Assembly (NCBI GenBank): GCA_043228905.1
Contig: JBHGNT010000018.1
Span: 2,480,001-2,544,000 of the forward strand
Direction: 5' to 3'
Length of the DNA stretch: 64,000 bases
Source: Azolla caroliniana
Taxonomy: Eukaryota; Plantae; Polypodiophyta
Numbering within the stretch: position 1 is the stretch's first letter; every line of letters begins with the position of its first letter. A model generated the notes under the pieces. It did not search any database. It was given only the letters and a program-made list of their open reading frames with translations, and was not told where the DNA came from. This document shows, piece after piece, positions 15,936 through 52,000 of this stretch. Both the position numbers and the translations under genes were made by a program.

Positions 15936-16080
15936 GAAGAAGATGCTGCTGCTGCTGCTGCTGCTGCTGGTGAGAAGGAGGATGATGATTTTCTGTGGTT
16001 TTGTTTTCTTTGCTCTCGGGCCATGGTGAAGGCGATGGCGATGGCGATGGTGATGGCGATGGCGCCATGACACCTTTCAT
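7075..16080 (-). CDS. SPY: SPINDLY-type TPR O-fucosyltransferase (GT41), 17 coding exons, about 1036 aa
   Basis: GT-AG exons read on the minus strand: 15337-16080, 12888-13049, 12631-12806, 12456-12531, 10684-10812, 10474-10593, 9975-10043, 9801-9882, 9600-9694, 9452-9516, 8965-9163, 8687-8881, 8508-8602, 8270-8405, 7976-8193, 7607-7734, 7075-7496. They total 3111 nt, in frame. TPR repeats (PAYYNLGVVYSEM, AEACNNLGVIYKDRDN) are followed by SPY catalytic motifs (GYISPDYFTHSV, VDILVELTGHTANN, TFGSFNNLAK, LDTFPYAGTTTTCESLYMGVP). The start ATG is inferred (MKGVMAP). Confidence 0.95.
10070..10430. repeat. Diverged ~198-bp direct duplication in SPY intron 6
   Basis: The block tatgtttg.actcttcaaagt...tagtgctccaaca.tgatacagtt...gctga.atttcag occurs at about 10072 and about 10270. 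Confidence 0.85.
14160..14540. repeat. ~100-bp degenerate tandem repeat (3-4 copies) in SPY intron 1
   Basis: Recurrent gtggtactaa(g)aaa..gcaaggcttt / ttggattattca.cccattg / aatgctggttt blocks. Confidence 0.75.
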
Positions 16081-16167
16081 GTGTGTGTCTTCTTCTTCTT
16101 CTTCAGGAAGGAAGGAAGGAAGGAATGTATAGACAGACAAAAAACACAGACTACTGCGAAAAAAATC

Positions 16168-16201
<34 letters not shown>

Positions 16202-16253
16202 TAGTAGGGTGTGTGTGTGTGAGAGAGAGAGAGAGAGATAGAGAGAGAGTAGT

Positions 16254-16292
<39 letters not shown>

Positions 16293-16366
16293 TAGTAGGG
16301 TGTGTGTGTGAGAAAGAGAGAGAGAGAGAGAGTTGTGTGTGTGTGTGTGAGAGAGAGAGAGTAGTA

Positions 16367-16397
<31 letters not shown>

Positions 16398-16432
16398 AGA
16401 GAGAGAGAGAGTAGTAGTAGTAGTATGTAGTG
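16081..16432. repeat. Compound (GT)n(GA)n(GTA)n microsatellite directly upstream of the SPY start
   Basis: About five iterations of a GT-run / GA-run / GTA module; reads as CT/CA-rich on the SPY sense strand. Confidence 0.95.
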
Positions 16433-19399
16433 TGAACTTTTTGCATTCTCCCAAAGTCAACAATGCGTATGTCTCTCTTCTCTATCTTCTCTCCTTTTCT
16501 CTTGTTGCCGGCCTACCTACCTGCCCTGCCCTTGCCTGCCCTCCTGGGTGTCCCGAGAATCCACATGAATCGGGTGTGTGGAGGATGATGTGCATGTTGG
16601 CTAATGGTCAGCCGGACTTGATGAACCCCGAGAACCTCTTCAAGCCTCGGACGGTTCGGTTCGTACACTCGACCCGTGCTCTCGCCCCGACGCTCTTCCC
16701 TGCGTGACCATATAACATTTGCCTCGAGTGCTTTCCTTCAAAATTTGTGTATGTAGGAAAGATATGTGTGTGCCCCTCTACTTACGATGTGCGCATGTGT
16801 CGTACATGTGAGGTTGCAAGTGTATGTGTGTGTATGTGATTGCGCACGTGTGCCATGGGATGCATTTGCATGAGAGAGGATGTGTATGAACGTGTGAATC
16901 AATCAGAATTTATATGTCCACATATGTGTGTGTGAACATTTATGTTTGTGCGTTTAGCTAACTAAATGTGTGCGTACGTTCATGTGCACCCTTATGTATG
17001 TTTCCTTACATTCGACAAGTATGTGTGTCGAAATGTATAACTTTGTATGTGTAACTTGAGTGTGAATAGATGTTGAATGTGTGTTTGTTTGATATGTGTG
17101 TGTGAATGTGTATGTTGACTATGCGGATGTGTAAGTGTCAATGTAAATTTTATAAGCATGTATATGTGTGTGTTGTGTGTAAATATATGGTCATACTTTG
17201 TAGATGGGCGGCATAGACTTTTACAAATTAGTACATGTATGTATGTGTGTATATAATATATATATATATGCATGTAATTCAAGGGTATTTTGGGAACATA
17301 AAGCTCCCCCTTTTTTTCCATGTTGGTTGTGTCAAATGAATTAGGGAATGGGACGGAAGAGGTAAAGAATCCCTTTATAGTGCGAACACTAGACTCGTGC
17401 CCAAACCAATGGTCATGATGAGGTTTTCGTGACGAGGAGGTTTACATCAGCCTTCTCATTCGTTGTACATGATGGCTAATCATGGATCAAACACCGCTAC
17501 AACATTGTTTAGTTGTTTTCATGATCCTCCTTCCTTCCTAGTTTTCGTGTCAGTGCGCACAATAGAACTTTTGAGTTTTATTGTTATGAGTCCCTAAGAT
17601 AGGCTCCACATGAGAGAACCTTTCAAGTTGTTTAATTTTGAGCTCAACATTGGTGCTTGATGCAAATCTCAAGCATCACCCAATAGAAGGGCATTGGATC
17701 TACATGCTTCACAATTGTGGCTTTGAATACTTGTGTTTGCTAAATTTTTAGTGTAAAGCCCATTTTCTTATTTTGGTCAATGTGCAAACATTTTTGTTGC
17801 AATGTTGGCACAAAATATGGTAGCCTACAATTGTTGTTGTAGGTCATGAATGGCTCCATCTTTCTACCGCCATTTGTTGTAGTAGTTATTTGAATTTGTG
17901 AGTGTAGGTGTTGTCTTCCTCCTTGATATGCACAATCAACCAATTTGTCTCTCTTGGAGGTAGCATTGTATTTGCTTTAAGTGTTGGTGACTTTTTGTTT
18001 ATTTTGATTGCTTCTACATCGGTGATGGCGAGTAGGACTTCCATCTTGCAAAAGTGAGGCTCAACCATTAGTCACCAGTGGGCAAAAAGAGGTCGTAGAA
18101 GCTATCATGAATGGAGTAAAATTAGGGGTTCCTCTTGTAGAGAGGATGGGAGAGGTTGGTGAACGCGGAGAGGTAAGTGTATTCACGTGTTGATGTATGA
18201 CATGGTCTTTGCCATCGAGGAGTGACATCCCCCAACCCTTCAACTAGCCCATTGTGAGGAATACAACCCCTCATGACTCAATAGTGACCCTCAAAGTGCA
18301 TCACGCCAAGATATGAATCATGTTGGCCCCTTCAAAAAAACTTGATTTAATGCATATCTTATTCATGTCGACATTGTTGTTTGGGCAAATTTCCTACCAA
18401 GTTCTTTCTTGGGCCGCTCTTTAGTTTTCTTCCTCTTATGTTCTTTTGGATATCATAATTGTTTTTTCTAGAGATGGATTTTCGGTGTGGGTTCTTTCGG
18501 CGTGCTACAAAATGCCAGTGTGACTGCGACATACACACAAACTCAGCTAAGTCTCGCACCCATTTATTTTATTCTTATTGACACCACAATGACGTCTAAA
18601 CGAGCTAAGGAACATAAGGATATACAAGACGAGGCTATAAGTAAAGATGACTTTTTAGATATGTGTTATCGTTTAACAAAAATAGAGATGGATATGAAAA
18701 AATGGGCAAAAGACGCTCAAACCCACAAGAAAAAAGATAAACAGGAAAAAGACGCTCTCAAGACTGAAATAGAGAATATCAAGATTTATATCTTATAATT
18801 AGGGAAATCAAGGAGAGAAAGAGGTACGTTAGGTTTTAGCTTTAATTTTGGGACATATCTCAAACAAGGAAAAACCATAACAAAAGGTTTATCTCATTCA
18901 CATTCACAATTGGGAGGGTATGAAGGCTTGTAGACATTGCCTCCTCTCTCTCACTAAAGATGTGAAAACAAATATGGAGCAATTGAAGGATATTGTCATT
19001 CTCAAGGCAAGGTATCAATATTTTAGTGCACATGTATGTGGACATTGAATGCTTAGTTTCCCATGCAATGCATGGATTGAAGAAGAATGCCAGTCTTGTA
19101 TCAAAATGTTCAAGCTCACAAAAGGTAAAAATGAGAAACCCCAAGCATTGTATCAATATTGAAGAATGACAAGGAAGATGAGACAATACCATCAAATGTA
19201 ATAAAAAAGAGATGTTTAAACTCCAACCAAAGTTAGCATGGAGACAACTCAAGGGCGAAAAGGAAGATGAGATTAGTGATTTCACTGACAAAGAGATAGC
19301 ACATATATGTAGAAGCTTAATATGCATCATAGGATAATGCATGTGACATTTAATATTGAAACACAATATAAACCATGTGTGTCTATTGAAGATATTAAT

Positions 19400-25330: not shown

Positions 25331-26885
25331 GTTTGACAGGTTTCAAATTAGGCACAAGGCAAGCAGTTTGACAATGCTCAATTATCACTCTCACTTGACT
25401 CATAATCAATAACGAATACAACGATCCACACCCCTTGGGAATGATATTGGCATAGAGACACAACTTTGTTGTGCTCAATGAGTACACCTTGACCCAATAC
25501 ATAGCATTGGAGGTGAGGTGTTCGATAAAGATTCCTCAGTCAAAATGGCCATTATGTGGCTTCTAGAAAATTTCTAGGGGATGTAAGATTAATGCCTTGC
25601 AATGTTTCCAATTTTGAGATCTACAATGGTGCAATATTGAGACTTGTGATGAGGATCCTTATGTTTTATATGATGTCCTTGTCATGTTAGACATCAAATA
25701 TTTTCTCATACCTCATAGCTTGATGGCAATGTAGATTTTCAAAGGGATGTGATAGGACGCGATGCTCCCTCCATGGTGATTATTCCAATAACGAAGATGT
25801 CGTAGAATCTTTGGACATTGCAATCACTACATAGAGGACCTTTAATAATATTGTACATTAGAAAGCTATTGATCATATATGCAATTGATGAACTTTGGTT
25901 GTGTAGGCTCTTAGTCCTTAGGATGTAGTCTCTCAACGTTTTTCGTGGCTTTCTATTTTATTGAGAACAATTAGTCTGTTGGGTTCCAAGTAGCATGTTG
26001 GAAAGAGAATTTTTGTAATGAACTCCTCATTAATTGGATTGCCTACACATTCACTGTTTAGAGATTCTACATCAATTCTAGGTTTCCATTTTGCAACCCC
26101 GTAATGAAGGGATTCTCCTAGACTGTGTTGGTTAAGGTTTTGACTTTGTGAGGTTTAATGTCTAGAAATATCATGTCTTTAGTTTGTCAATTTTTATGGG
26201 TATTGTGTGTGTAGAGTTTGAGGAACTTATACTCATGTTAAAGTCATAGTTGGAGTTATGTGTGTTTGGGTTTATTGTAACCTATTGGATGTGACTCCTT
26301 AATGCTCTTATGTGTGCTTGTCTATTCCATTCTTGTATATTTCCTTAATAGTTAATGTTAAGTGATTAAGTGAGCTTAAGTTCATTTGTGTGCATTTCGT
26401 TGTTAAGTTTAGGGCTTGATTTGCTCATTCTTTAGTGTTTTTTCATTGTCTTGGGAGCGGATTGACACCATCTCAAACTTGTCCCACCAACAATAGAGCA
26501 TACGTTGTCCCAACTCCCATAGATCTTGGTCCAAGGATAGTTAGGTAATGCTAAGTAGAAATTTTTGTGGAAAGTCCTAGGTGAGTGTTAGGGATGATTA
26601 ATAAGGGCTAGTTTTAGGGGCAAGTGATAGAGGAGAGGAATGGTAGATGTGATTGTTGGGGGTGTGTTGGAGAAAAATACTAAAGGTGAGTGCAAGTTGA
26701 GGATGACTCTAGGGGTAAGTGCTAGGGATGACTCATGAGTATAACATTATTTCCCTAAACAAAGATAAATTTCAAGGACATTAATAAATGCAATTAAAAG
26801 AAATTGATGGGAATCATGGTCAAAGTAAGGAGAAAACAAATTATGTCAAAGCATTCTAAAACAATTGATTTGAATCCATAAACAC

Positions 26886-28314
26886 TGTCAGGAACAGTAC
26901 TAAGACAGAGATGGAATTAGTACTAAAAGAAGTATTAGTACTAAGAGAGGTGAAGAACTCTCGAGAGAAGGAAATAGTGAGTGAGAGGGAGAGAGAGAGA
27001 TCGAGAGAGAGAGAGAGTGATGATAAGAAAAGATATATATTATGTGAAGAGAATGTACAATAGTACCTAGGAGGCTTAAGACTGGCGTTGAACCGATTTG
27101 GTTCGAAATAATGCCTTGTGCCTCCTTTTATAGTGTTCTGAGGAATACTCCTGAAGTTTCTAGAATGTTCCAGAGAGAGAGAGAGTGATGGTAAGAAAAG
27201 ATATATATTATGTGAAGAGAATGTACAATAGTACCTAGGAGGCTTAAGACTGGCGTTGAACCGATTTGGTTCGAAATAATGCCTTGTGCCTCCTTTTATA
27301 GTGTTCTGAGGAATACTCCTGAAGTTTCTAGAATGTTCCAGAGAGAGAGAGTGATGGTAAGAAAAGATATATATTATGTGAAGAGAATGTACAATAGTAC
27401 CTAGGAGGCTTAAGACTGGCGTTGAACCGATTTGGTTCGAAATAATGCCTTGTGCCTCCTTTTATAGTGTTCTGAGGAATACTCCTGAAGTTTCTAGAAT
27501 GTTCCAGAGAGAGAGAGTGATGGTAAGAAAAGATATATATTATGTGAAGAGAATGTACAATAGTACCTAGGAGGCTTAAGACTGGCGTTGAACCGATTTG
27601 GTTCGAAATAATGCCTTGTGCCTCCTTTTATAGTGTTCTGAGGAATACTCCTGAAGTTTCTAGAATGTTCCAGAGAGAGAGAGTGATGGTAAGAAAAGAT
27701 ATATATTATGTGAAGAGAATGTACAATAGTACCTAGGAGGCTTAAGACTGGCGTTGAACCGATTTGGTTCGAAATAATGCCTTGTGCCTCCTTTTATAGT
27801 GTTCTGAGGAATACTCCTGAAGTTTCTAGAATGTTCCAGAGAGAGAGAGTGATGGTAAGAAAAGATATATATTATGTGAAGAGAATGTACAATAGTACCT
27901 AGGAGGCTTAAGACTGGCGTTGAACCGATTTGGTTCGAAATAATGCCTTGTGCCTCCTTTTATAGTGTTCTGAGGAATACTCCTGAAGTTTCTAGAATGT
28001 TCCAGAGAGAGAGAGTGATGGTAAGAAAAGATATATATTATGTGAAGAGAATGTACAATAGTACCTAGGAGGCTTAAGACTGGCGTTGAACCGATTTGGT
28101 TCGAAATAATGCCTTGTGCCTCCTTTTATAGTGTTCTGAGGAATACTCCTGAAGTTTCTAGAATGTTCCAGAGAAATCTAGAATATACATCAATTTTCTA
28201 TAATAAAACATAAATGAAAATAATATTCTACGTATTACAATGTATGGTCTAATGGTCAAGAGCTCAACCCATGTAGCATAAGGTCATGGGTTTGAGTCTT
28301 GCCATATCATGACA
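26886..28314 (-). repeat. 3' LTR of the gypsy element, expanded to 1429 bp
   Basis: Same termini and sequence as 33099-33469, plus a tandem array and an extra ~50-bp segment near 28231-28282. Confidence 0.95.
27003..28174. repeat. Tandem array, 7 copies of a 166-bp LTR sub-unit
   Basis: Unit ends (gttcca) at 27172, 27340, 27506, 27672, 27838, 28004 and 28170. Copies 2-7 appear identical apart from GA-run length. Confidence 0.97.
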
Positions 28315-31300
28315 TTATCCCCCCTTTAAAACGACGAGTGTAATGAGTCGTTTTGGATTGAGGACCCGGTTTGTCTGGATATTGACAATGGAAGTCTTCA
28401 AGAAGAGCACGAGCATTGGTGACATTCTGTATCGGTTCCCAAGTACGCTCGCTGGGACTATATCCTAGCCAATCGACTAGATAGTAGAGCTTGTTGCGAA
28501 CAATCTTGGAATCAAGGATGGTGGCAACCTCGTACTCAGGTCCATCTTCAAGCTCGATCGGGGGTGGAGGCTGTGTAATACGTCCTGGGATGGTGCTCTC
28601 TTGATAGGGTTCGAGGAGAGAACTATGAAACACTGGATGTATCCGAAGTTGTGGAGGTAGATCGAGACGAAAAGCGACACCATTAATCTTTCCTATAATA
28701 CGGAAAGGACCTAATCGCCGATAATCCAACTTCTCGCATGGGCGAGTAGTCTTGATGTGTCGTCGTAGTAGCCATACCCAATCTCCAATGTTAAAACTGG
28801 ATGGGAGTCGATGACGATCCGCATAAACCTTGTTTGTTTGTTGAGCTTGTTGGAGATGAGTAGATAAATCTGCTTGTATCTTGCGTAACCGCTCCAAACA
28901 ATCCTCCGCGCAAGGATTTGTGGACACCTCTAGGGTTTCAAGTACACACCACCTGGGGTGACATCCCATATAAGCATAAAATGGCGTAACTTTAGTCGAT
29001 GTGTGGATAGAGTTATTATAAGCAAATTCGGCAAAGTGGAGAATATCTGCCCAGTCATCCTGATGATAGCTGAGAAAGCACCGCAAATACTTCTCCAGCG
29101 TTTGATTTGTTCGTTCAGCTTGGTCGTCGATTTGTGGGTGGTAGCTGGAGGAGAGGTTACAAGTGACCTTGATCATTTTAAAAAGGTGCTTCCAGAATTT
29201 TGACACGAACTGGGGTCCACGGTCGTTGATGATACTATCGGGAAGTCCATGATGCCGACATACTTCACGCATGACAATTTCGACACTGTCTTCACTGGAG
29301 ATTTCCTTAGTACAGGGCAAGAAATTAGCCATCTTCATATATCGATCTACCCCTGTTAGAATCGCATTGAACCCCTTAGAGACTGGAAGATCTGTGATGA
29401 AGTCTAGAGCAATGGATTGCCACGACTTGCTTGGAATTGGTAATGGTTCTAATAAACCATATGGATGATGCCTTGACATTTTCGCTCTACAACATGTATC
29501 ACAAGTCCGAACAAAATCTTCGACAAATTGTCGCATACGGGGCCACCAGAATGATCGTTGTACTAAATCTAATGTTTTAGTACTACCAAAATGCCCAGTA
29601 GTTTTGTACTACTCGAAGGCGGCAAGAACCATTAGGAACATACAAAAGTTCTTTAAAGAAGAGTAATCCATCATAGTATTTGAATTGCCGATAGTCCGTA
29701 TCTGGTGGTTGCGACTGTGAACACGACGCTCGAGAGGGATCAATTTGTGCTAGTATAGCTTGGGCGAAAGCATTTGTCTTCAGGTCTGCACGTATGATAT
29801 TGATAACGTGGGAATCCATGGGCATGCCAAAGACCTGTGTTGCTTGCAGTCGTGCCGGTCCCAAGATTACTTGCTTTTGGTTATCGAAAGCTAGCTCGCC
29901 GGGACGCGGTGCTAGGTACGAATGCCGTGATAATGCATCTGCTTTCCCTTGATGCTTCCCAGGTCGATATGTAATCTTGAAGTCGAAACACGTGAGAAAA
30001 TGGGCCCACCGAGCTTGACGTCGATTTAACACATGAGCGTCTTGAAAATAGGCGAGGTTTTTGTGGTCACTGAATATAGTGACTTGATGAGAAGATCCCT
30101 CTAGAAAATGCCTCCATTGCATAAAAGAGTCCACTATAGCCAATAACTCTTTATCATGAATTTCGTAGTTGATTTCGGTGGCGTCAAACTTGCGTGAGTG
30201 AAAAGCCACAGGATGTAGCTTTTCATCATTACCTCGTTGTGATAGAATGCTCCCCAATGCAAAATCTGATGCGTCTGCTTCGATGATGAATGGTTTTTCT
30301 GGATCAACGTGAGCTAGAATCAGAGCTGATGTAAATGCCTGTTTAAGATTCTCAAAAGCCATGTCCACTTCTTCAGACCAAACGAACGATTGTCCCTTCC
30401 TAGTAAGTTGTGTAAGAGGCAAAACGAGCTTTGAGTAATCCTTTATAAACTTCCGGTAAAAAATTGGCAAAGCCTAGAAAGCATTGCACATCCTGCACCG
30501 AACGTGGAGTCTGCCATTCTACCACCGTTTTGACCTTAGCTGGGTCAATGGAGATGCCTTCTGAGGAAATGACATAGCCGAGAAATTCCACATGGTTGCA
30601 CCCGAAACTAAAATTTTCCAGCTTTGCATAAAGACCATGTTCTCGAAGTCGTTTTAGTATTAACAGTACATGAGAATCATGCTCTTCTTGGGTCTTTGAG
30701 TAAACCAGTAGATCATCCAAATAGATGATTAGACACACATCCAAGAGATCTCGGAAAATATCATTTGCCATGTGCTGGAAGACTGCTGGTGCATTAGTGA
30801 GGCCGAATGGCATGACCGTATACTCGAAGTGCCCATATCTGGTGCGGAACGCGGTCTTCCATTCATCTCCTGGTCGGATCCGTACGAGGTTATAGGCTCC
30901 TCATAAGTCGATCTTCGTGAAGAACCTGGCACCATTGATCCGTTCTAAAAGACTTGAGATAAGGGGGAGTGCATACCTATTTCGGATTGTAACCTTGTTC
31001 AAGCCACGGTAATCTACAACGAGACGAAGTGAGCCATCCTTTTTCTTGACGAAGAAAATGGGTGCGCCGGTTGGAGATTTCGAATGTTGTATGAAACCAT
31101 TCTCCAAATTCTCCTCTATATAGGCTTGAAGGACTTCCAGTTCGGTTGGTGACAGATTGTAGGTCGGTCCCCATGGTGGCTCTTTACCCGGTTGTAAATC
31201 AATGGGGCAATCATATGGTCGATGGTGAGGAAGCGTATTGGCTTGTACTTTATCAAACACATCAACATAATGACGATACTTCTCTGGAAGTTGAACGGTG

Positions 31301-31887
31301 GATTCCTCTTTAGTGGTGCTGGAGGGTTTTACTGATATTGCGAAGAGGAACATTTCTTCCTTGCGTCCTTCCTCATGCAACTGATGTAGTGAAATCGTTG
31401 CAATCTCATGAGTAGACCCTCGGGCTTTTCGATGCCGTATTTCTCTTGTTCGCCAATCTATGTCTGGGTTATGTAATTCGAACCATGGTAATCCTAAGAG
31501 AATGGGGTGTTTTGGGATGCTAATTATATTAAATGATACGACACATGCCAGATTATCTAGGACAATATTAACGGGCTCTGACTCTTCTATGATATTTCCA
31601 GAAGCAATGGGACGACCATCAATGACTACTACAGAGGCAAGACACGGGAGTTTTCTGAGAGATATCTGATGATCTTGGGCAAATTTCCTATCCATGAAGC
31701 AAGAATTAGCTCCAGAATCTAGAAGTCCTAAGACATGTATTGGAGGAGTACTTTTAGTACTAAGTGTTACTTGGGCTACGAACACATTGCTAACTTGCTT
31801 AGAGGGAATGGAACCACTAATGGGCTGCACAGATCTAGGGCTGTCCAACCAAATGGCTCCTATTTTGGCTGGACTTAGTCGTTTAAC
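28307..31887 (-). pseudogene. Gypsy pol (PR-RT-RH-IN-chromodomain), disrupted
   Basis: ORF pieces 30901-31848, 30400-30813, 29583-30470 and 28307-29536, separated by a premature TGA and frameshifts. Confidence 0.93.
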
Positions 31888-32970
31888 TCTTCCTCTAACT
31901 GACTAAGGACATCAAATTTGTTTGCTAAATTTGGGCTATTAGTACTATTAGGACTATTAGATATCCCTACTCAAATAGACTCGGGTTTAGTACAATCAGA
32001 ACTAGCAACTATTTGGTTTCCCTGCCTTCTTGGCCTATGGGGACAGTTTACCGCGATATGCCCTGGTCCACCGCAATAAAGACATAGTCGGTTTGCTCGG
32101 CATCATTGCTTTTCTTCTTCCGATAGCGATCCACGACGACATGTGGTGTCAATTTCCATCGGAGTTGGAGTACTTACTGGAGGCGCATTATATGACTCCC
32201 TCGGAAAAGGTTTCGCTACCACTGAGGCGTAGGTAGGCTCTGATCTTGCCCTCAGAATCTGGAATTGTTGTTCCGAACGTTGTTCGAAGAGGCGGTTGTC
32301 GCATCTCACCGTGCGACTAATTGCTTATGTTAATGACTTTGGCTCTTCGGGGAAGGTCAAGAGTAAATCCTTGACATTGTTGCGTAAGCCATAACGGAAT
32401 TGTTCCATCAATGCGTGATCATCCCAAGGGATATCGGCAGCGAGTAGGCGGAAATCTGTAGTGTATGCGGAGGCTGGACGATCACCTTGGCGTAATCGCC
32501 AGATTTTGTTGATTGCAGTCCTTATGCTGTCAGTATCTCCAAAACATGCCTTAAACTCACTTATAAATTCTTCAAAACTGTTTAGTAATGGAGATTCCTT
32601 TTCCAACAATGGAGCAAACCATGCTAACGTTGAGCCACTAAGGAGAGTGCCTACTAGTCCCACTCGTGATGCATCAGTGGGATATTGAGAAGGATGCATT
32701 TGTATCACTAAACGTACCTGATTCAAAAACCCTTCTAAATTGTGATCGAGTCCCATCAAATTTTGCAGGAAGACCGATCTTGGGTTCTGTGTGAATCCCT
32801 TGAGTGCTTGATCCTTGTTGTTGTAATGATATGATAGTCGCTTCGAGTTGTTGTACACGTAACGTTAGCTCCCCATGTTGTTGTTGTTTTTCTAGCGCTA
32901 TTTGTTGAAGATCCCCCAACAAACAATGATTTTCTTGTTCTAGTGTTACAAATTTCTCTTTTAAGCACTA
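31875..32970 (-). pseudogene. Gypsy gag (retrotrans_gag domain plus CCHC knuckle), disrupted
   Basis: EPKIGLPAKFDG, LSGSTLAWFAPLLE, LRQGDRPASAY...FR and TPTPMEID motifs plus a CCHC knuckle. The gag frame ends ...[15 protein letters not shown]. Confidence 0.88.
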
Positions 32971-33098
32971 GAGCTCCGAGAAAACAGATTGGTATTCCTG
33001 AGCGCTAACAGTTTCCATTTTACTAGGGAGGATAAGAGGATTAATAAGAAGATAAAAGGAAGAGGAGGAAGGAAGATCGACCCAAAATCGGTTCAAAC

Positions 33099-33469
33099 TG
33101 TCAGGAACAGTACTAAGACAGAGAAGGAATTAGTACTAAAAGAAGTATTAGTACTAAGAGAGGTGAAGAACTCTCGAGAGAAGGAAAGAGTGAGTGAGAG
33201 GGAGAGAGAGAGAGAGAGAGTGATGATAAGAAAAGATATATATTATGTGAAGAGAATGTACAATAGTAGCTAGGAGGCTTAAGACTGGCGTTGAACCGAT
33301 TTGGTTCGAAATAATGCCTTGTGCCTCCTTTTATAGTGTTCTGAGGAATACTCCTGAAGTTTCTAGAATGTTCCAGAGAAATCTGGAATATACATCAATT
33401 TTCTATAATAAAACATAAATGAAAATAATATTCTATGGTCATGGGTTTGAGTCTTGCCATATCATGACA
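33099..33469 (-). repeat. 5' LTR of the gypsy element (371 bp) with TATA box
   Basis: TG...CA termini; TATAAAA on the minus strand at 33329-33335. Confidence 0.95.
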
Positions 33470-33659
33470 AACATAGTATTAAGACAATCTGAACGTTTTC
33501 CTTATTTATTGACATTTGGTATTCTAATAATGTGATTTTTTGTTTTTTTAAAGAAAGATGCACCTTAGTATATTACTTGAAAATTGTACTTAGAGAAAAT
33601 AGAAGGAGACATTTCATCTGATCAAACATATATGAAACAAGTAGAACAATACTATCAAG

Positions 33660-35039: not shown

Positions 35040-35719
35040 TGTTCGGAAACAGGTCCCTCCGGATGGGAAGTGAGAACAACAGTACTGATGAGTAAACTCG
35101 GCCGAGGCCAAAACCGAATGTGGACTACCCGGGTACGGAAGACTCGGTGAGAACCGGATGAGGAGTACCCGGCTACGGAAGACCTGGTGAGAACCATATG
35201 ACGAGTACCCGGCAAGAGCCGGATGGTGAAGGCCCGGTGAGAAGTGCTCACCGGATGAAGAGACATATTCGTAAATATGTTTTCTGAGAGTCCATCGGGG
35301 CTATATTTGTAAATAGACGAAAAGTCATATTAGTATAAATATGACTTAGGGCAAACTTAGTCGTTGGTTGAGAGTTGTTGTCATTCTTGTTGGTGCAAGA
35401 TTAGAGTGCGCAACCGTGTACAAAGAGAGTGAGAGAGAGGAAGAGGTTGTTGCCTCTGTTGTAACCGCCGCCTGTGGCGAAGATAGAAAGCTCGAGGTCA
35501 TTGCTTCGGTGCTTTACCATTTGTACATTCTGACATAGTGATAGTTTGCAGTCTGTGGGCTGCAGTGGTTTTTTCCCTAGTTTGGGTTTTTCCACGTTAA
35601 CATCCTATGTTCTCTTCTCTCCATTGTGCCGTGCATTCATTCCCGTTTTTTTTTCTGTGTTTTGATTCTAAGCTCGGTTGTGGCCGAGCGTTGTTCATCG
35701 GGAGCGTGTGTTCCTGTCA
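35040..35719 (+). repeat. Copia 5' LTR (680 bp; carries one extra 40-bp unit versus the 3' LTR)
   Basis: Matches 40404-41043; tacccgg...ggtgagaacc...gagtacccgg is duplicated near 35125-35210. Confidence 0.95.
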
Positions 35720-38004
35720 AAGTGGTATCAGAGCGAAATGACACAGAAAATGGATGATTCGTTGGGAGGCATGTTCAAGCTCACCGGCTCCAACTATTCG
35801 GTGTGGAAGTCGAAGATGAGGGACATGCTCGTGGTTAAAGATCTTTGGTTGTTGGTTCAGTTCAGGGACAAGAGACCGGACAAAATCGATGCCACGATAT
35901 GGGAGGTGATGCACATGAAGACAACGGCGTACATACGGTGTTTCATCGACATGAGTCTATACAACAACTTCAATGAAGAGAGCAAGGCTCATGAGCTCTG
36001 GGAGAAGATCGACATTATGTTTTAAAACAAAAATGTTGTTAATCAGGTTTTGGTATTCCGGAAGCTAGTAAGACTCTGGTACCAAGATGGCTCCAGCATG
36101 GCGGAGCACATGAATGCCTTCCAGGGGCTGATCCACCAGGCAACATCATTGGAAGTACCTCTTGCCAATGAGGTACTAGCACTACTCCTGCTCGGTTCCC
36201 TCCCAGATAGCTGGGAGACGTTGGTTGTCACCTTGGGCAACACCGGGCCGGAAGGGAAACGGTTATCCCTAGCAAGAGTGAAGTCGAGCTTGCTAGATGA
36301 GGAGGCACGTCGGAAAGATAAGGATACGAGCTCTAAGTCCAAAGCGTTCCTTACCGAATCGGAACGCGGAAGACAAAGGAACCGTAGTCCCCAGAACCGG
36401 GAAAAGTCGGGGATACGGTCAAAGTCAAGGCGGTTCGAGCAGATAACGGAGGTGAAATACCGGGGGCAGTTCGAGGAGTACTGTCGCTCGAAGGGAATCC
36501 GGCTCAAATTTACTGTGCCGAATACGCCGGAACTAAACGGGCTGGCCGAGAGGATGAACCAGACCATAATGGAGAGGGTTCAAAGTATGCTGGCGCATGC
36601 AAAACTACCCAAGAAGGTTTGGGCTGAGGCACTGTCAACGGCGACATATGTGATAAACAGATCACCCTCAGTACCCTTGGACGGAGACACGCCACAAAGA
36701 GTATGGACCGGTAAGGAAGTATCCTACCGGCATCTGAAGGTATTCGGGTGTCTTGCGTATGTGCATGTAGCTAAGGACCGGAGAGGAAAACTAGATCCGA
36801 AGACCCGGCCATGCATATTCCTCGGTTATGGCGACGATGAGTTCGGCTACCGAGTGTGGGACCTGGTCGACAAGAAGGTATTCCGGAGTCGAGATATTAT
36901 CTTCATGGAGGACAAGACACTCGCCAACTGGGAGTCGGAGAAGAAGATAATGAACTCCGAGTCGACCGGTAAGGATCGATTCTACGAGGAGCAGACCCAA
37001 CCGGCAAGAGACCGGTTAGCACTCGAGGAACCAACCGGTTACGGTGAGGATACCGAACCAGCAGAAGAAGAAGTAGAGGAAGTTGAAACCGGAACCGGCC
37101 AAGACCCCGAATCGGCTTCAGATGAAGAGCGAATGGAGGGCCCGGTTACCGAAGCCCAAAGACGGAGATATCCTCTCAGAGAGAGAAGGCCCCCCCGGAG
37201 ATTTCCAGATGCAGAGCATGTGCTGCTAACCGATGAGGGGGAGCCAGAAAGCTTCGTAGAGGCGAAGGATGACACCCACAACTGCAAATGGTTAAGTGCC
37301 ATGCAGGATGAGATGGATTCCCTGCATGAGAACCATACGTACGAATTGGTGGAGCTGCCGAAAGGAAAGCGGGCACTCCGAAACAAGTGGGTGTACAAGT
37401 TGAAACTGGGAGATGCCGGCAACCCCCCGAGATACAAAGATAGGATCGTGGTGAAGGGGTTCTAGCAGAAGAAGGGCGTGGACTTCGACGAGATATTTGC
37501 CCCGGTAGTAAAGATGACCTCCATCCGGATGGTGCCGAGTATAGCGGCAAGCATGGACCTCGAGGTAGAGCAGTTGGACGTGAAGACGACATTCCTTCAC
37601 GGTGACCTCGAAGAGGAGATCTACATGCAGCAACCAGAAGGATTCGTGGAGAAAGGGAAGGAGCGCTTGGTTTTTCGGTTGAAGAAGAGCCTGTACGAAC
37701 TGAAGCAGGCTCCCCGACAATGGTACCGGAAGTTCGACTCCTTATGACCGATCAAGAGTACCACAAGACACAGGCTGGTCACTTTGTGTTTGTGAACAAG
37801 TTCGAAGGAGGCGACTTCCTGATACTCCTTCTGTACATGGACAACATGTTGATTGTCGGACGGGACCAAGCCAAAATACGGATGCTGAAGAAGGTTCTCA
37901 ACTGAACCTTCGCGATGAAAGACTTGGGTCCGGCAAGACAGATGTTGGGGATGCATATCATCCGGAACCGGCCAACGAAGCAATTGTGGCTGTCACAGGA
38001 GAAA

Positions 38005-39812
38005 TACGTGACAAAGGTGCTTCAACGGTTCAACATGTCAGATGCGAAACCGGTCGGATCGACATTTCCGGCAAACTGGAGGTTATCCGGTAAGCAAAGC
38101 CCGAAGACAAAAGCAGAGAAGGTGGATATGATGAAGGTTCCATATGCCTCTGCCATCGGGAGTTTAATGTATGCAATGGTGTGTACCCGACCGGATATAG
38201 GATACGCAGTCAGAGTGGTGAGCCGGTTTATACGTGACAAAGGTGCTTCAGCGGTTCAACATGTCATATGCGAAACCGGTCGTATCGACATTTCCGGCAA
38301 ACCGGAGGTTATCTGGTAAGCAAAGCCCGAAGACGAAAGCAGAGAAGGTGGATATGATGAAGGTTCCATATGCCTCTGCCGTCGGGAGTTTAATGTATGC
38401 AATGGTGTGTACCCGACCAGATATAGGATACGCAGTCAGAGTGGTGAGCCGGTTTATACGTGACAAAGGTGCTTCAGCGGTTCAACATGTCAGATGCGAA
38501 ACCGGTCGTATCGACATTTCCGGCAAACTGGAGGTTATCCGGTAAGCAAAGCCCGAAGACGAAAGCAGAGAAGGTGGATATGATGAAGGTTCCATATGCC
38601 TCTGCCGTCGGGAGTTTAATGTATGTAATGGTGTGTACCCGACCGGATATAGGATACGCAGTCGGAGTGGTGAGCCGGTTTATACGTGACAAAGGTGCTT
38701 CAGCGGTTCAACATGTCAGATGCGAAACCGGTCGTATCGACATTTCCGGCAAACTGGAGGTTATCCGGTAAGCAAAGCCCGAAGACGAAAGCAGAGAAGG
38801 TGGATATGATGAAGGTTCCATATGCCTCTGCCGTCGGGAGTTTAATGTATGCAATGGTGTGTACCCGACCGGATATAGGATACGCAGTCAGAGTGGTGAG
38901 CCGGTTTATACGTGACAAAGGTGCTTCAGCGGTTCAACATGTCAGATGCGAAACCGGTCGTATCGACATTTCCGGCAAACTGGAGGTTATCCGGTAAGCA
39001 AAGCCCGAAGACGAAAGCAGAGAAGGTGGATATGATGAAGGTTCCATATGCCTCTGCCGTCGGGAGTTTAATGTATGCAATGGTGTGTACCCGACCGGAT
39101 ATAGGATACGCAGTCGGAGTGGTGAGCCGGTTTATACGTGACAAAGGTGCTTCAACGGTTCAACATGTCAGATGTGAAACCGGTCGTATCGACATTTCCG
39201 GCAAACTGGAGGTTATCTGGTAAGCAAAGCCCGAAGACAAAAGTAGAGAAGGTGGATATGATGAAGGTTCCATATGCCTCTACCGTCGGGAGTTTAATGT
39301 ATGCAATGGTGTGTACCCGACCGGATATAGGATACGCAGTTGGAGTGGTGAGCCGGTTTATACGTGACAAAGGTGCTTCAGCGGTTCAACATGACAGATG
39401 CGAAACCGGTCGTATCGACATTTCCGGCAAACTGGAGGTTATCCGGTAAGCAAAGCCCGAAGACGAAAGCAGAGAAGGTGGATATGATGAAGGTTCCATA
39501 TGCCTCTACCGTCGGGAGTTTAATGTATGCAATAGTGTGTACCCGACCGGATATAGGATACGCAGTCGGAGTGGTGAGCCGGTTTATACGTGACAAAGGT
39601 GCTTCAGCGGTTCAACATGTCAGATGCGAAACCGGTCGGATCGACATTTCCGGCAAACTGGAGGTTATCCGGTAAGCAAAGCCTAAAGACGAAAGCAAAG
39701 AAGGTGGATATGATGAAGGTTCCATATGCCTCTGCCGTCGGGAGTTTAATGTATGCAATGGTGTGTACCCGGCCGGATATAGGATACGCAGTCAGAGTGG
39801 TGAGCCGGTTTA
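38005..39812 (+). repeat. Tandem array, 8 copies of a 226-bp piece of copia RT
   Basis: Unit starts (tacgtgacaaagg) at 38005, 38231, 38457, 38683, 38909, 39135, 39361 and 39587. Copies differ by a few substitutions. Confidence 0.98.
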
Positions 39813-40403
39813 TGAGCAATCCCGGCAAGGAGCACTAGAACGCAGTCAAATGGATACTCCGGTACTTGAAAGGCACTTCAAATATGTGTCTTCGATTCGG
39901 CTCCGGAAAACCTCAACTTGACGGTTTTACCGATTCAGACATGTCGGTTGATGTGGATACTAGCCGGTCTACATCCGGGTATGTAATGACATATGCAGGG
40001 GGAGGTGTTTCGCGGCAGTCGAGGCTGCAGAAGACAGTTGCGCTGTCAACCACGAAGGCGGAGTACATGGCGGTTGTGGAAGCCGGCAAGGAAATATTAT
40101 GGATGAAGGACTTCATCGGAGAGCTCGGTATCCGGCAAGATGAATATCGGCTCTATTGTGACAGTCAAAGTGCCATCCACCTTGCTAATTATGTGGTCTA
40201 CCATTCCTGGACAAAGCATATCCAGCGAAGGTATCATTGGATCCGGGAAAGAGTAGATGACCAGAAGTTCGCGTTGACGAAGATCCACACGGCTGAGAAC
40301 GGGTCAGATATGCTGACCAAAGTACTGATACCCGACAAGCTGGATGCATGCCGGAAGCGGATCGGACTAGTAAGACATCCCATGCCGGAGTGAAGGGGGA
40401 GTT

Positions 40404-41043
40404 TGTTCGGAAACAGGTCCCTCCGGATGGGAAGTGAGAAGAACAGTACTGATGAGTAAACTCGGTCGAGGCTGAAACCGAATGTGGACTACCCGGCTAG
40501 GGAAAACCCGGTGAGAACCAGATGACGAGTACCCGGCAAGAGCCGGATGGTGAAGGCCCGGTGAGAAGTGCTCACCGGATGAAGAGACATATTCGTAAAT
40601 ATGTTTTCTGAGAGTCCATCGGGGCTATATTTGTAAATAGCCGAAAAGTCATATTAGTATAAATATGACTTAGGGAAAACTTAGTCGTTGGTTGAGAGTT
40701 GTTGTCATTCTTGTTGGCGCAAGATTAGAGCGCGCAACTGTGTACAGAGAGAGTGAGAGAGAGGAAGAGGTCGTTGCCTCTGTTGTAACCGCCGCCTGTG
40801 GCGAAGATAGAAAGCTCGAGGTCGTTGCTTCGGTGCTTTACCATTTGTACATTCTGACATAGTGATAGTTTGCAGTCTGTGGGCTGCAGTGGTTTTTTCC
40901 CTAGTTTGGGTTTTTCCACGTTAACATCCTGTGTTCTCTTCTCTCCATTGTGTCGTGCATTCATTCCCGTTTTTTTTTCTGTGTTTTGATTCTAAGCTCG
41001 GTTGTGGCCGAGCGTTGTTCATCAAGAGCGTGTGTTCCTGTCA
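40404..41043 (+). repeat. Copia 3' LTR (640 bp)
   Basis: TG...CA, preceded by the PPT and followed by the CTAAA TSD. Confidence 0.95.
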
Positions 41044-44560: not shown

Positions 44561-45190
44561 AGAGAGAGAGAGAGAGAGAGAGATCACCATATCCACTCCC
44601 GCACGCTGATTTTGCATATTTATTATCTACCCTTCTCTCTCTCTCTCTCTCTCTCTGCCAATGGCTTCGTAACCCTAACCCTAACCCTAACCCTAACCCT
44701 AACCCTATTCCTAAGCACTGGCATACCTGCAGTGTCCCAATCGCCTCATTGGATCGAAACACCCCTCACTCCTCACCCTTACTTACCAGATTGCCATAAC
44801 TCCTGTCTCTACCCACCCAATTGGCTCATCGTTGCAAAACCCTAAAGCCCATTTCTCTAATGCTAAACCGCACACAAATCCCATATCTCGATTTTTAGTC
44901 CGCCACCATCTCATCTTTCTAATTTAATCTGCTACCGCCACAATCCCCAAATCCTAACCATTTTGACTCTAGACATTACCATTCACTCTCTCGAATCGGC
45001 AGTTACAGGCGGAAATCCTAACCTAATTACCCTAAACCCTAGTAATCCTTAAATTTATTAACTCTAATTAAGCTAATTCCAATAACTCTAATTACCCTAA
45101 ATCAAATAGCCCCAAGCCTAATTACTCGTAACCCTAACTAACGAAGCTAGGCCCTGATATCTCTAAACCCTAATCTAACCTATCCTGGTT
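44561..45190 (+). promoter_or_regulatory. NAC upstream region with GA/CT repeats, (AACCCT)6 and scattered telo-box-like motifs
   Basis: (GA)n 44561-44583, (CT)n about 44634-44656, (AACCCT)6 44671-44706, and AAACCCTA-type motifs near 44837, 45034 and 45165. The function is inferred. Confidence 0.5.
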
Positions 45191-45192
45191 CA

Positions 45193-46410
45193 ATGGCAGG
45201 CAGGCACAACATAATGGATCTTCCGCCGGGCTTCCGCTTCCACCCAACGGACGAGGAGCTAGTAGCGTTCTATCTCCACAGGAAAGCCACAGGTCTGGAC
45301 ATCCCGGCCGACATAATTGCAGAAATCGATCTGTACAAGCACGATCCATGGGAGCTTCCGCGTTTCTCGTCTTGCATCAAGAACGCTTCTGTTGCTACAA
45401 ACCCTAACCCTAACCATAACCCTGACCATGACCATAACCATGACCATGACCATGACCATGACCATAACCCTAACCCTAACCATGACCATGACCCTAACCC
45501 TAACCATGACAATAACCATAACTCTGACCATGACCATAACCATAACCATAACCATAACCATAACCATGACCATGACCATGACCATGACCATGACCTTCAT
45601 CATCATCATAACAACAACAGCAGTAACAACAATGGGCAACAACAATGCTTCTTCTTCAATTTCTCAGACAAGAAGTATCCGAGAGGATCAAGGACGAACA
45701 GGGCCACAGTGTCAGGGTATTGGAAGGCGACAGGGAGGGACAGGAGGGTGTTGGCACGAGAGGACATGGTGGGGATGAAGAAGACATTGGTCTTTTACAA
45801 GGGCAGGGCCCCAAGTGGAGAAAGGACGGATTGGGTCATGCATGAATACCACCTCTTGGTACGAGACTCTCGCGGTTTTGCCCCTCCCGACCAATCGTCT
45901 CGCGACACGTCATCATCGTCGTGCCCCGCACCCCCTCTCGGAGTTGGCCTCGAGAACCCCGGACAACATTACCCTGGGTCCTCGACCACTGGACACCACC
46001 ACCCTGGGTCCCCTAGGAAGTGTCACGTGGACACCCGACACATGGAACAACATGTCAATAGTACCGAATTACATGTCAACTCTTGCTCCTACCCACACTC
46101 TGGTCAGGAACCCTCGTCCTCGCGCCCTGCCTCTCCTGCCAAGGTTGCAACCCCCCACTCAAATTCGTCCCCTAGGTCGTCCTTCTGCATCAGACACCCC
46201 ATGGTCATCTGCCGCATCATTCACAAGAAGAAGAAGAACAAGAGGAAGAATAATATAATATGTCCTCGAGCTAACAGTATCCCCCCCACCATTACGCGCG
46301 CGACCCTTCCTCAACTCGTCTCCCCTAGCTCCCCTGATCAACCTCACCTCTCCCCCCTTAGAGATGACAATGACAACAATGATGGAAGTGACATTGATCA
46401 TGATGAGTAA
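45193..46410 (+). CDS. NAC-domain transcription factor, single exon, 405 aa, with expanded linkers
   Basis: Subdomain A LPPGFRFHPTDEELV, B IAEIDLYKHDPWELP, C KKYPRGSRTNRATVSGYWKATG, D VGMKKTLVFYKGRAPSGERTDWVMHEY and E VICRI, all in one open frame. Confidence 0.88.
   Translation: MAGRHNIMDLPPGFRFHPTDEELVAFYLHRKATGLDIPADIIAEIDLYKHDPWELPRFSSCIKNASVATNPNPNHNPDHDHNHDHDHDHDHNPNPNHDHDPNPNHDNNHNSDHDHNHNHNHNHNHDHDHDHDHDLHHHHNNNSSNNNGQQQCFFFNFSDKKYPRGSRTNRATVSGYWKATGRDRRVLAREDMVGMKKTLVFYKGRAPSGERTDWVMHEYHLLVRDSRGFAPPDQSSRDTSSSSCPAPPLGVGLENPGQHYPGSSTTGHHHPGSPRKCHVDTRHMEQHVNSTELHVNSCSYPHSGQEPSSSRPASPAKVATPHSNSSPRSSFCIRHPMVICRIIHKKKKNKRKNNIICPRANSIPPTITRATLPQLVSPSSPDQPHLSPLRDDNDNNDGSDIDHDE
45400..45633 (+). 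repeat. Coding hexamer repeat (AACCCT/GACCAT/AACCAT) encoding NP/DH/NH dipeptides
   Basis: Directly visible; lies in frame between NAC subdomains B and C. Confidence 0.95.
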
Positions 46411-49023: not shown

Positions 49024-52000
49024 TCATCTACGAGATTTCTTCTTTGTTTTGCTTGAAGATTTGCCACCGCCAGTGGTTGCTTTGATTGTTGGTTCCGCAC
49101 TTGAAGGTTGTCCAGATTTTCCAGCCAAAGGAGGAGCCTTCAAAGACGATGCCGGAGTGGCATTCACTGATGTCACTGGCGATGGGGCGTTTTTGGAGAC
49201 TGATACTGACCCTTGAGCACCGCGCAACTGTGCCCTCTTATCTTTTCTTTTTGGCCGAAAGCTCGATCTCTCCCTCAAAGGAAGCCATCTCTCAGGATCT
49301 GGAGGAGGGCCGGGATTGGCCGGGTCATATCCCTTGGGATATCTTGGCTTCCTCTTACGCCTCCTCTTGTTTTTCTTTGGTCGCCCTTCTTCTCCTCCAT
49401 CTTCGATTGCCCAATGGTGCCGTTTCACACCTAAACCACTACCACCACTACCAATTACCCCTTTCTCTTCCAAAGAAGAAACATCTATAGCCTCTACCCC
49501 GGCCAATGCTGGCAATTGCCGCTCATACTCCTCTGCTTTTACTATATCTGTATGCACCAGACTGCATATAAGCCCTGTTAAGGCCTCCCCTCGTACTCCC
49601 TTAGATGAGCTTTTTGCTAGCTTTTGAAATAGAAGAGACGCCCCTTCCATGTTCTTGTGCTTCAGTTTCAATGCCGCTGCTTCTTTAGCGAATAGCTCCA
49701 GTGTAGTTTCGGTTTTTTCACCCATGTGATTTTCCCACCATTGCACTGCAGCATCGAGTGAAGCTTCAGCTCCATTTAAATCCCCACCTCTTTCCTTTAG
49801 AGCTACCAAAGTTGCCACCATAGCAGGCTTATGTTGAAGATTTGATATTTTCTCCAATGACTGAGCTGCCACTATATGATGACCTGCTTGAGCTGCTATT
49901 TGAGCACGAGCAAGGAGCAACATTGTTTCATCATTAGGATGCTTTTCTAAGTATTGCCCAAGCATTTCTTCGGCTCGAGTTAGCTTTCCTTCTCTCACAA
50001 GTAAAGACGCGCTCAATATAGCTGGAATACAACTATCCGGAAACTTTGCAAAAAGGCTCGGAAGAAGTTCCCTGACCTGGAGAAAATAGAAACTTTAGAG
50101 GGAAGTTGCAGTGAAAGAAAAAAAAATTGTGTTGGAATGTTGTTTGGATTCCTTCTGTTTTTCATGCTTGTGACCCGCAATGCTGTTGTGATACATGCCC
50201 ATCTTTGTACTAATGAGGTTTTATCTTGAATTTATGTTACTATAATGCGGTTAGAATTCTAAAAAGAGCCATAACTCTCAAATTATATCTAAAAATCCAA
50301 CATACGATGTCTGAAATTCTATGCAAACACCTGGTCTAATTTGTTCCCAAGCAGCAGCAATAGGAACCGATTAAAAGCTATTGCTTCCTTTTGTCGGGTA
50401 GAAAGCCTATGTTCCAAACCCTCTGCAAACCGCAGCCCTTCCTCAGATGTCTTCTTGTCAAACAAGCTATCTAGTTTCCTTAAAGAATCCGAAAGCTCTT
50501 TATTCCGCTTCAGCACAACAAGGTTGTTGCAAGCAACAGCCATTGCAGGAGCATCTGCCAGTTTTTGTTTCAAAAGATGATTATAAGCATCAAGAGCCTC
50601 TGTTGTTTGATCTTGAGCCTGAACAAATTTTCATGTCCCTTTTAGGAAGTGTCCAGAAAATGCAAATCACTGGACAATAAAGTCAAAACTACATAAAACT
50701 TCACCTGCTGAACAAAAGCGAGTTGTACAGAAATTGGAGCCAATTCATTCTCCACCTCATCGTTTGTGAAATCTTCTTCAATGAGCATTTCCTGTCCAAT
50801 TCTGTGAAGTCACAAAAGCACTGACAAAACTGAGAAGTATAGTTAACATTCATTGATCATATATGAAGAATATATAGTGCACATCAATCCCACGGCAGGA
50901 CAGTCACAGTTTTGATCAGGGTCACTATATCTATAACTGACATGCACCCTTCTTCAATTCAAACAGTGTATTCCCCTTGAAATGATACATTCCACTGTCT
51001 AGATCATGTGCAAAAAAATGCTTATATATTCCAAAAAACTATAAAATATCCAAGTTTTAATCACTTCCCTGAATTCTTAGATATATAATAGCTCAAATAT
51101 CGCATGTAATTGCTCTTTAAGGAACTGACCAGGGGCATCTCAGAGTTTGTCCCCTATCTTTGTTTAACTAAAGAAATATCTGTAATACTGAAACACTCCT
51201 ACAAATACTCATAAACGACAGTAGGCTGTGCATTAAAAACTGTAAAGTCTACAGGTGCACACTTTACGGCTGATTAAATTCTGTGAAGTATCATAAAAAA
51301 CAGAAAATACCTTCGAGCAAGTAATAGAAGTTCTTCTGCCTTGGCATAGTTATTGCCTTCAATTGATGCACATGCAGCATTATAAGCCAACTCAAATCCG
51401 CTACGAGGAGTGACTTTCAATGTTTGCATGAGCGCCGGAACCTCATTTGACCTTCCCCCAGATATGTAGGAGGCGATCAGATTGGTCTTCAATTCGCTTG
51501 AATCAAGATTAGCTTTTTGAGACAACTTATTATAGCTGTCTATGCATGCATTAAAGTCACCTAATCTATAGAATATCTGAGCTTCAAGCTGAAGAATTTC
51601 ATCATTTCTTTCTAATCCTTCCAAAGCCAGAATAGCTTCTTGTAGAGCATTCTTTTTGTACAAGCAATACGACTGAAGCCATAAACAAAGTTGTTAGCTT
51701 CTGAATATAAACCCTTGTGCCTTAGTGACTGGTATCAAACCAAGCAAGGGCTCCAATCTGCATTTTCTGCATTATCTTAGGTCCGAAGTCCTACCCTATA
51801 TGACTAGTATTTAATATAGCATCAAGAAGCTTTCACAAAGAGTTTTCTATATTTAAATACCTAAACTCTAACCCTGATATATATATATATATATATAACA
51901 TGGCTATTAGTGTCTAATTAAGAAAGCTTCTAAACTGCATATTCTAGTTTTGGATATACCCCAAACACCTACGTCCCTGATTATTATTATTATCTAATAA

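What the first reader, a model, noticed from the sequence alone, without database searches (positions are those of the whole stretch)
33078..33335. tRNA-independent, Tf1-style self-priming signature in a plant chromovirus
Seen: downstream of the 5' LTR there is no TGG-type tRNA PBS. The minus strand reads GT-TTGAACCGATTT (33096-33085), which is perfectly complementary to AAATCGGTTCAA in the LTR (33302-33291). That LTR site begins 33 nt after the start of the TATA box, where a TSS is expected. Complementarity extends to about 20 nt with one gap and one mismatch. Known: fission-yeast Tf1 primes reverse transcription with the first nucleotides of its own transcript. Inference: this element self-primes, consistent with the fungal-related Tcn1-like clade of non-seed plants.
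Basis: partly seen in the sequence, partly recalled or inferred. Interest (0 to 1): 0.72.

Follow-up and report, generated by a model that had tools for sequence, protein, structure and literature searches.

The report
Self-priming fern retrotransposon with fossil footprints
This jumping gene, likely in a fern, has no tRNA docking site and likely starts copying itself with the first 12 letters of its own RNA, a trick already predicted in print for this group, and dozens of mis-copied relatives in the same genome carry joints that likely mark where that primer begins and where it is cut.

Summary
Observation confirmed; interpretation supported but already predicted in print (self-priming in 83% of 1,500 plant Tcn1 elements, PMC6317226) and noted by this scan in two moss genomes. 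The element (33469-26886, minus strand) is a decayed chromovirus. Its PBS (33096-33085) lies 2 nt after the LTR and pairs perfectly with 33302-33291, 33 nt after TATA (0 of 5,000 shuffles). Two other families in the genome keep the layout with different letters, and a short second helix is conserved. The 20-nt extension is not conserved. New here: (1) the host looks like a fern, not a moss; (2) the four bases after the PBS are a mutation hotspot (22 variants in 47 copies), marking the primer's likely 5' end; (3) 48 loci join U3 plus primer directly to an inverted copy of U5. In 15 of 37 that copy stops within 8 nt of R+13, the predicted cut site; none stops at R+1; 25 of 40 carry target-site duplications. 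Four family-C copies missed that 8-nt window. No transcript start was measured; Tcn1 membership lacks reference sequences.

The parts
33470..33474 (-). 5' target-site duplication ATGTT
   Evidence: partner GTGTT at 26885-26881, one mismatch
33099..33469 (-). 5' LTR, TGTCA...TGACA, 371 nt (about 50 nt of U3 missing against the 3' LTR)
33329..33335 (-). TATA box TATAAAA
   Evidence: 31-33 nt before the primer site in three families
33291..33302 (-). Predicted self-primer AAATCGGTTCAA (R+1 to R+12; start site inferred, C|A initiator)
33283..33290 (-). Conserved CRCCAGTY after the primer; predicted second helix with the GT spacer and the LTR end; R+13 (33290) is the inferred cut side
   Evidence: register kept in A, A2, B, C, L121, L177; not the minimum-energy fold in this copy
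33097..33098 (-). Two-base spacer GT between LTR end and PBS
33085..33096 (-). PBS TTGAACCGATTT, complementary to the element's own R start
33081..33084 (-). Hypervariable joint just 3' of the PBS (likely run-off point of plus-strand synthesis at the primer's 5' end)
   Evidence: 22 variants, 33 parsimony changes in 47 copies; 2-9 variants at 20 other T or A runs
28310..33018 (-). gag and pol (PR-RT-RH-IN-chromodomain), broken by stops and frameshifts in both
28388..28534 (-). Group I chromodomain with the three aromatic cage residues (Y, W, Y)
   Evidence: PF00385 E 1.4e-13; residues read; cage definition from PMC3350952 passages
28318..28327 (-). Polypurine tract AAAGGGGGGA, preceded by TTTT, 3 nt before the 3' LTR
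26886..28314 (-). 3' LTR, lengthened by a 7-copy 166-nt tandem array (27006-28174) that holds TATA and the primer site
26881..26885 (-). 3' target-site duplication GTGTT

Best explanation
The element is a decayed Ty3/gypsy chromovirus whose family likely primes reverse transcription with its own RNA: the transcript likely starts at 33302, its first 12 bases pair with the PBS, the RNA is likely cut after base 12 as in Tf1, and the freed 3' end would be extended through the GT spacer into U5. Shown in sequence: the pairing, its place after the LTR and after TATA, compensatory changes between families, a mutation hotspot at the PBS 3' edge, and integrated copies in which U3 plus primer is joined to an inverted copy of U5-R. 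Inferred: the start site; the cut by RNase H (from Tf1); that the hotspot arises when plus-strand synthesis runs off the primer's capped 5' end and adds or slips bases; and that the odd copies arose in the particle when a U3-bearing strand ending in the primer sequence primed at a PBS, ran off a template already cut at R+13, jumped to an internal site and was then integrated.
For: Pairing beyond chance. Same layout, different letters: A AAATCGGTTCAA, A2 AAATTGGTTCAA, B AATTCGAATCAA (RH 67% identical, three two-sided changes), C AAGGTGAACAA (RH 48%), each 31-33 nt after TATA, starting at C|A, PBS 2 nt after CA: 13 of 20 B-hit and 15 of 20 C-hit loci gave the perfect layout. R letter tracks PBS letter in 64 of 71 A-type 5' LTRs (49 C:G, 15 T:A, 7 discordant; copies are related, so not independent). 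Metagenome relatives L121, L177, L188, L191 show it too (4 of 72 loci examined, many lacking a 5' LTR). Hotspot; five near-identical sister copies show four different joints. The base after the PBS is C, the partner of a cap G, in 92 of the first 100 of 379 family-C matches and in all 16 normal B copies. Odd copies: 24 of 209 B joints, 19 in A (1,678 joints), 5 of the first 100 in C. End of the inverted piece within 8 nt of R+13 in 15 of 37, p 2e-9 against a uniform null, within 2 nt in 7; none of 43 ends at R+1; 4 run on into U3. Target-site duplications with at most one mismatch in 25 of 40 (33 had an end in range), perfect in L206 and L222. One contig of an independent run bridges such a joint (X3, 201 nt, depth 3.5). 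Tf1 mechanism: PMC7175516 passage. Clade prediction: PMC6317226 passages and supplement.
Against: No read data show the start site or the cut: only assembled contigs were served. In family A the commonest base after the PBS is T (38 of 61), C only 12, so cap copying alone does not explain it, and B and C show no hotspot. The held-out family-C odd copies did not repeat the tight end clustering: 0 of 4 within 8 nt, two about 11 and 13 nt short by eye, one more ran through. The uniform null is crude. The third helix of the Tf1 'pretzel' was not seen, and in this copy the second helix is not the minimum-energy fold. The joint inside a 12-nt inverted repeat cannot by itself tell priming from template switching. 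Novikova 2010 found no self-priming site in Selaginella SM-Tcn1.
Confidence: 0.87

Rival explanations
1. A tRNA fragment cut in the T-loop primes at this PBS; the likeness to R is incidental.
For: The A and A2 primers resemble a T-arm: plastid-type tRNA-Thr(GGT) loci hold ATCGGTTCAA and ATTGGTTCAA, 10 nt of the PBS partner.
Against: Match is 10 nt against 12 for the LTR, internal, not a CCA end. Only one T-arm pattern was searched, not all host tRNAs. Family C's PBS has no T-arm likeness, and each family's PBS follows its own LTR letter for letter.
Confidence: 0.04
2. The R:PBS helix is a structural element of the leader (packaging, dimerisation or translation control) and priming happens another way.
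For: Covariation shows selection on pairing, not priming as such; no cDNA end was seen.
Against: The helix ends exactly 2 nt from the LTR end in every family, where priming must start; no other primer site exists; the odd copies continue from primer base 12 straight into the complement of GT-CA.
Confidence: 0.08
3. Self-priming is right, but the odd copies come from DNA fold-back of plus-strand strong-stop DNA, from host template switching between the 12-nt inverted repeats after insertion, or from assembly chimeras, so they say nothing about a cut site.
For: Four A/B copies and one C copy run through R into U3, as a fold-back or a completed first strand transfer would give. Target-site duplications would also survive an internal rearrangement after insertion. 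Family C ends are looser.
Against: Most copies lack the reciprocal joint of a simple inversion and jump to many different internal sites; they reach 11% of young B joints; an 11-nt inverted repeat elsewhere in B gave 0 of 20 such joints against 3 of 20 (its arms are 4 kb apart, a weak control); a displaced hairpin has no reason to stop at R+13.
Confidence: 0.35
4. Chance or a one-off local inverted duplication in this copy.
For: 1 of 947 interior 20-mers reaches 12 nt or more.
Against: Kept in 1,678 A-type and 209 B joints and at least 379 C joints with compensatory changes.
Confidence: 0.01

Closest known systems
Plant Tcn1-clade chromoviruses (REXdb; Neumann et al. 2019, PMC6317226; passages, supplement file 3 read whole)
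   Same: No tRNA PBS with a self-complementary site 0-5 nt after the LTR (predicted for 83% of 1,500 elements), 5-bp TSD, size range, gag and pol in separate frames, chromodomain with aromatic cage.
   Different: Reported there only from moss and club-moss; this host looks like a fern. That paper predicted by BLAST complementarity alone; in the passages and the five supplement files held I saw no covariation, hotspot or aberrant-copy evidence. Its per-element table and sequences were not held, so these families may already be in it.
Tf1/Tf2 of Schizosaccharomyces pombe, Tj1, Tosmo1-3, Tcry1 (Tf1/sushi group; passages of PMC7175516, PMC10085805, PMC4600332)
   Same: 11-12-nt primer at the predicted RNA 5' end pairing with the PBS; chromodomain integrase; one flanking helix between the LTR end and R.
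   Different: Tf1 is shown by experiment, with RNase H cutting between bases 11 and 12; here nothing is shown at the RNA level. Primer is 12 nt in A and B. The third 'pretzel' helix was not found. A GT spacer separates LTR and PBS.
Tcn1 of Cryptococcus neoformans and SM-Tcn1 / PpatensLTR1 (Novikova 2010, PMC2864245 passages)
   Same: Fungal-related chromoviruses of non-seed plants; Tcn1 was proposed to self-prime.
   Different: No priming site was found in SM-Tcn1; the clade was reported for mosses and Selaginella although 26 ferns and horsetails were surveyed by PCR.
RLG1 of Physcomitrium patens (PMC7466625 passages)
   Same: Abundant chromodomain gypsy family of a non-seed plant, with suggested fungal links.
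   Different: No sequence comparison was possible; that paper does not mention a PBS.

Membership tests
Ty3/gypsy chromovirus | Order PR-RT-RH-IN with a C-terminal chromodomain, TG...CA LTRs, PPT, TSD | tested here: met
Plant Tcn1 clade | Group I chromodomain with aromatic cage | tested here: met
   Y, W, Y present; also found in Chlamyvir and some Galadriel, so not exclusive
Plant Tcn1 clade | No tRNA PBS; at least 10 nt complementary to the 5' LTR, 0-5 nt after it | tested here: met
   12 nt, 2 nt after; criterion
Plant Tcn1 clade | 5-bp TSD, gag and pol in separate frames | tested here: met
   pol-only open frames of about 1,200 aa in B and C copies; this copy is too broken to show it
Plant Tcn1 clade | RT groups with Tcn1/Tf1-sushi references, apart from Reina, Tekay, CRM, Galadriel | tested here: inconclusive
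   RT is 52-66% identical to named fungal and vertebrate proteins, 47-49% to two seed-plant ones; the split has weak support (87/33) and no named clade reference was on hand
Plant Tcn1 clade | Host range moss or club-moss as published | tested here: not met
   Neighbouring SRP72 groups with the fern Adiantum (68%; moss 49%), one gene, no named lycophyte in the set; read as a range extension
Tf1-type self-priming | PBS complementary to 11-13 nt of the LTR, kept by compensatory change | tested here: met
Tf1-type self-priming | The complementary stretch is the RNA's 5' end | tested here: inconclusive
   TATA +31 to +33, C|A initiator and the hotspot point to it; no reads
Tf1-type self-priming | Cut right after the primer | tested here: inconclusive
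   Odd copies end near R+13 in A and B, less so in C; indirect
Tf1-type self-priming | Three-helix 'pretzel' | tested here: inconclusive
   Central and LTR-end helices predicted; helix with the leader 3' of the PBS not seen
Tf1-type self-priming | Cleavage needs the element's RNase H; transposition needs the pairing | not testable with these tools
   bench work

The most novel reading that the evidence does not exclude
Fern genomes hold a fossil record of self-priming: 1-11% of insertions of these families are integrated mis-priming products whose inverted piece runs from the primer's last base to the cut end of the RNA, and the bases after the PBS record run-off at the capped primer. Both ends of the primer can then be mapped from DNA alone, giving the first in vivo evidence of a Tf1-type cut in a plant and a test for any predicted self-priming lineage.
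Probability: 0.5. Interest if true: 0.65.

Novelty: new member of a known kind. Interest (0 to 1): 0.45.

Why it matters
Self-priming is shown by experiment in fission-yeast Tf1; for plants the papers I read give a prediction from complementarity. This genome adds covariation across three families, a likely fern host for a clade reported from mosses and Selaginella, and two genomic footprints that would fix the primer's ends without bench work. The footprints can be sought in any genome with a predicted self-primer, and they show a frequent way of making rearranged, non-autonomous copies.

Tried and rejected
Start-site mapping from public runs: only contigs were served, no read ends. The 20-nt extended pairing as the functional unit: rejected, not conserved. 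My first guess of a moss host (RLG1-like): dropped. A loose TATA pattern gave background-level counts; it only pointed to subfamily A2. Patterns were meant to count odd joints but match normal joints on the other strand; they are used as totals, and searches count the odd ones. The TSD count (0 of 39) came from an offset bug and is replaced. One search's control: the two U3 palindromes match the normal sequence and are uninformative. Three older family-D hits (L223-L225) had no LTR in range. About eleven fungal-like metagenome loci showed no perfect 10-nt partner. The viral-contig scan gave three distant loci, none informative. Lin and Levin 1997 and Atwood-Moore 2005 and 2006 were not held; I saw titles only. 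Literature searches listed nothing whose title or abstract start describes such aberrant copies, the hotspot, or Tcn1 in ferns; subscription journals, bioRxiv supplements and REXdb's per-element files were out of reach, and fern genome papers may already label Tcn1.

Full report
Anatomy. The finding lies at the 5' end of a 6.6-kb LTR element on the minus strand: 5' LTR 33469-33099, 3' LTR 28314-26886, TSD ATGTT/GTGTT, PPT at 28327-28318. Pfam finds gag, protease, RT, RNase H, integrase and chromodomain in gypsy order; both gag and pol are broken by stops and frameshifts. The LTRs are about 99% alike where they align without gaps. The 3' LTR holds seven near-identical 166-nt repeats.

Observation. 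After the LTR's CA come GT and TTGAACCGATTT; its perfect partner AAATCGGTTCAA starts 33 nt after TATA, at a C|A step (plant start sites lie about 30 nt after TATA at such a step: recalled). No shuffle of 5,000 reached 12 nt, and the leader folded from 33302 forms the helix with pair probabilities 0.55-1.0. The 20-nt extension exists in this copy only as part of a variable zone.

Known already. Neumann et al. 2019 (PMC6317226; passages; supplement table) predicted self-priming for 83% of 1,500 plant Tcn1 elements, by complementarity of at least 10 nt. Tf1's mechanism, 11 bases and an RNase H cut, is from a review passage (PMC7175516); the three-helix 'pretzel' from PMC10085805. This scan noted the same layout in two moss genomes. 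The core claim is therefore not new.

Covariation. The genome holds 1,678 exact LTR-end-plus-PBS joints of family A. Subfamily A2 has T in R and A in the PBS; R and PBS agree in 64 of 71 5' LTRs in hand (related copies). Metagenome locus L121 led to family B (209 joints) and L177 to family C (at least 379). I took the 20 best hits of each search (two on small contigs skipped). B reads AATTCGAATCAA, C reads AAGGTGAACAA; both start 32 nt after TATA at C|A and pair with a PBS after the same GT. Pairing stops at the initiator: the C before the primer faces C or T, not G. All three families keep CRCCAGT after the primer; it can pair with the GT spacer and the LTR end, and L177 changes both sides of that helix. 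It is the minimum-energy fold in B, C, L121 and L177 but not in this copy. A third helix was not seen.

tRNA rival. No TGG means no ordinary tRNA 3' end (established knowledge). One T-arm pattern found 20 loci; of the 12 fetched, nine were scanned, and the best tRNA match is 10 internal bases in plastid-type tRNA-Thr. Not all tRNAs were compared.

Footprint 1, the primer's 5' end. In 66 distinct copies picked without fixing the PBS (72 rows; 60 fetched, plus the window) the PBS columns are conserved and variation jumps at 33084 (T 38, C 12, G 6, A 1, gap 4 of 61). Among 47 of 81 copies with this leader type, the four bases after the PBS show 22 variants and 33 parsimony changes, the highest of 1,375 windows outside the CT microsatellite (median 4); 20 other T or A runs show 2-9 variants. 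Likely cause: plus-strand synthesis copies the primer to its capped end, adds or slips bases (RTs copy a cap as C: recalled), and the mismatch is fixed after strand transfer. In B and C the next base is already C and is stable, which fits; the T-rich state of A does not follow from the cap alone.

Footprint 2, the primer's 3' end and the cut. Three of the 20 unselected B copies read U3, primer, AC, then inverted U5: the sequence that priming at the PBS makes, with U3 attached. Exact patterns found 24 such joints in B and 19 in A; five of seven C candidates are the same. They begin with a whole U3, copy U5-R backwards for 12-241 nt, mostly jump to different internal sites and end at a normal 3' LTR. 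Dropping four that run on into U3 and one of each of two shared pairs leaves 37: 15 stop within 8 nt and 7 within 2 nt of R+13; none stops at R+1, where an uncut RNA would end. Target-site duplications match in 25 of 40 and in L206 and L222. One contig of another public run bridges such a joint (could be a library chimera). Against: the four stopping C copies ended further off, and fold-back of plus-strand strong-stop DNA or host template switching can give the first joint. I put the cut-site reading at about even odds.

Host and clade. The window's SRP72 gene is 68% identical to a fern protein and 49-55% to the moss, liverwort and seed-plant proteins, and groups with the fern: likely a fern, on one gene. 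The papers read place plant Tcn1 in mosses and Selaginella only. RT identity and a weakly supported tree put families A-C among fungal and vertebrate Tf1/sushi-like proteins, apart from two seed-plant RTs; no named clade reference was available, so the element works like Tf1 and fits Tcn1 by features, without a phylogenetic proof.

Verdict. Real, likely self-priming (0.87), a new member of a kind predicted in print. Its added worth lies in the likely fern host and the two footprints, which my eight literature searches did not surface. Interest 0.45.

Noticed in passing
window 27006-28174: Seven near-identical 166-nt tandem copies inside the 3' LTR, each with TATA and the primer site, bounded by TCTCT; a very recent amplification or an assembly artefact.
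   Followed up: partly
window 35040-40775: A copia-type element (+ strand; direct repeats at 35040 and 40404, 93-95% alike) holds an 8-copy 226-nt tandem array at 38004-39813, apparently from its coding region: a second tandem amplification within 10 kb.
   Followed up: no
window 44660-44717 and 45370-45645: AACCCT/GACCAT hexamer runs in and before a NAC (NAM domain) gene, partly telomere-like.
   Followed up: no
window 14968-16512 and 49024-50094: Long TPR-containing reading frames; the second is SRP72-like with a longer branch than its fern relatives.
   Followed up: partly
L126, L128, L141, L159, L174 (metagenome, fungal-like): No perfect self-complement, but a 12-13-pair imperfect duplex between the bases after the LTR and a site 79-82 nt before the LTR end: perhaps a bulged self-primer.
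   Followed up: partly
L326, L329, L332 (about 1340-1675): A tRNA Leu-Gln-His cluster repeated at many loci, with an odd Gln call; possibly organelle- or symbiont-derived.
   Followed up: no
families A, B and L188 primers: The primers contain T-loop-like words (GGTTCAA, TTCGAAT); family C's does not. Probably chance.
   Followed up: partly
L355 (G000:C21, about 10385000): A minimal odd insertion of about 420 nt: U3, primer, inverted U5-R, then the last U5 bases, with a perfect 5-bp TSD.
   Followed up: partly
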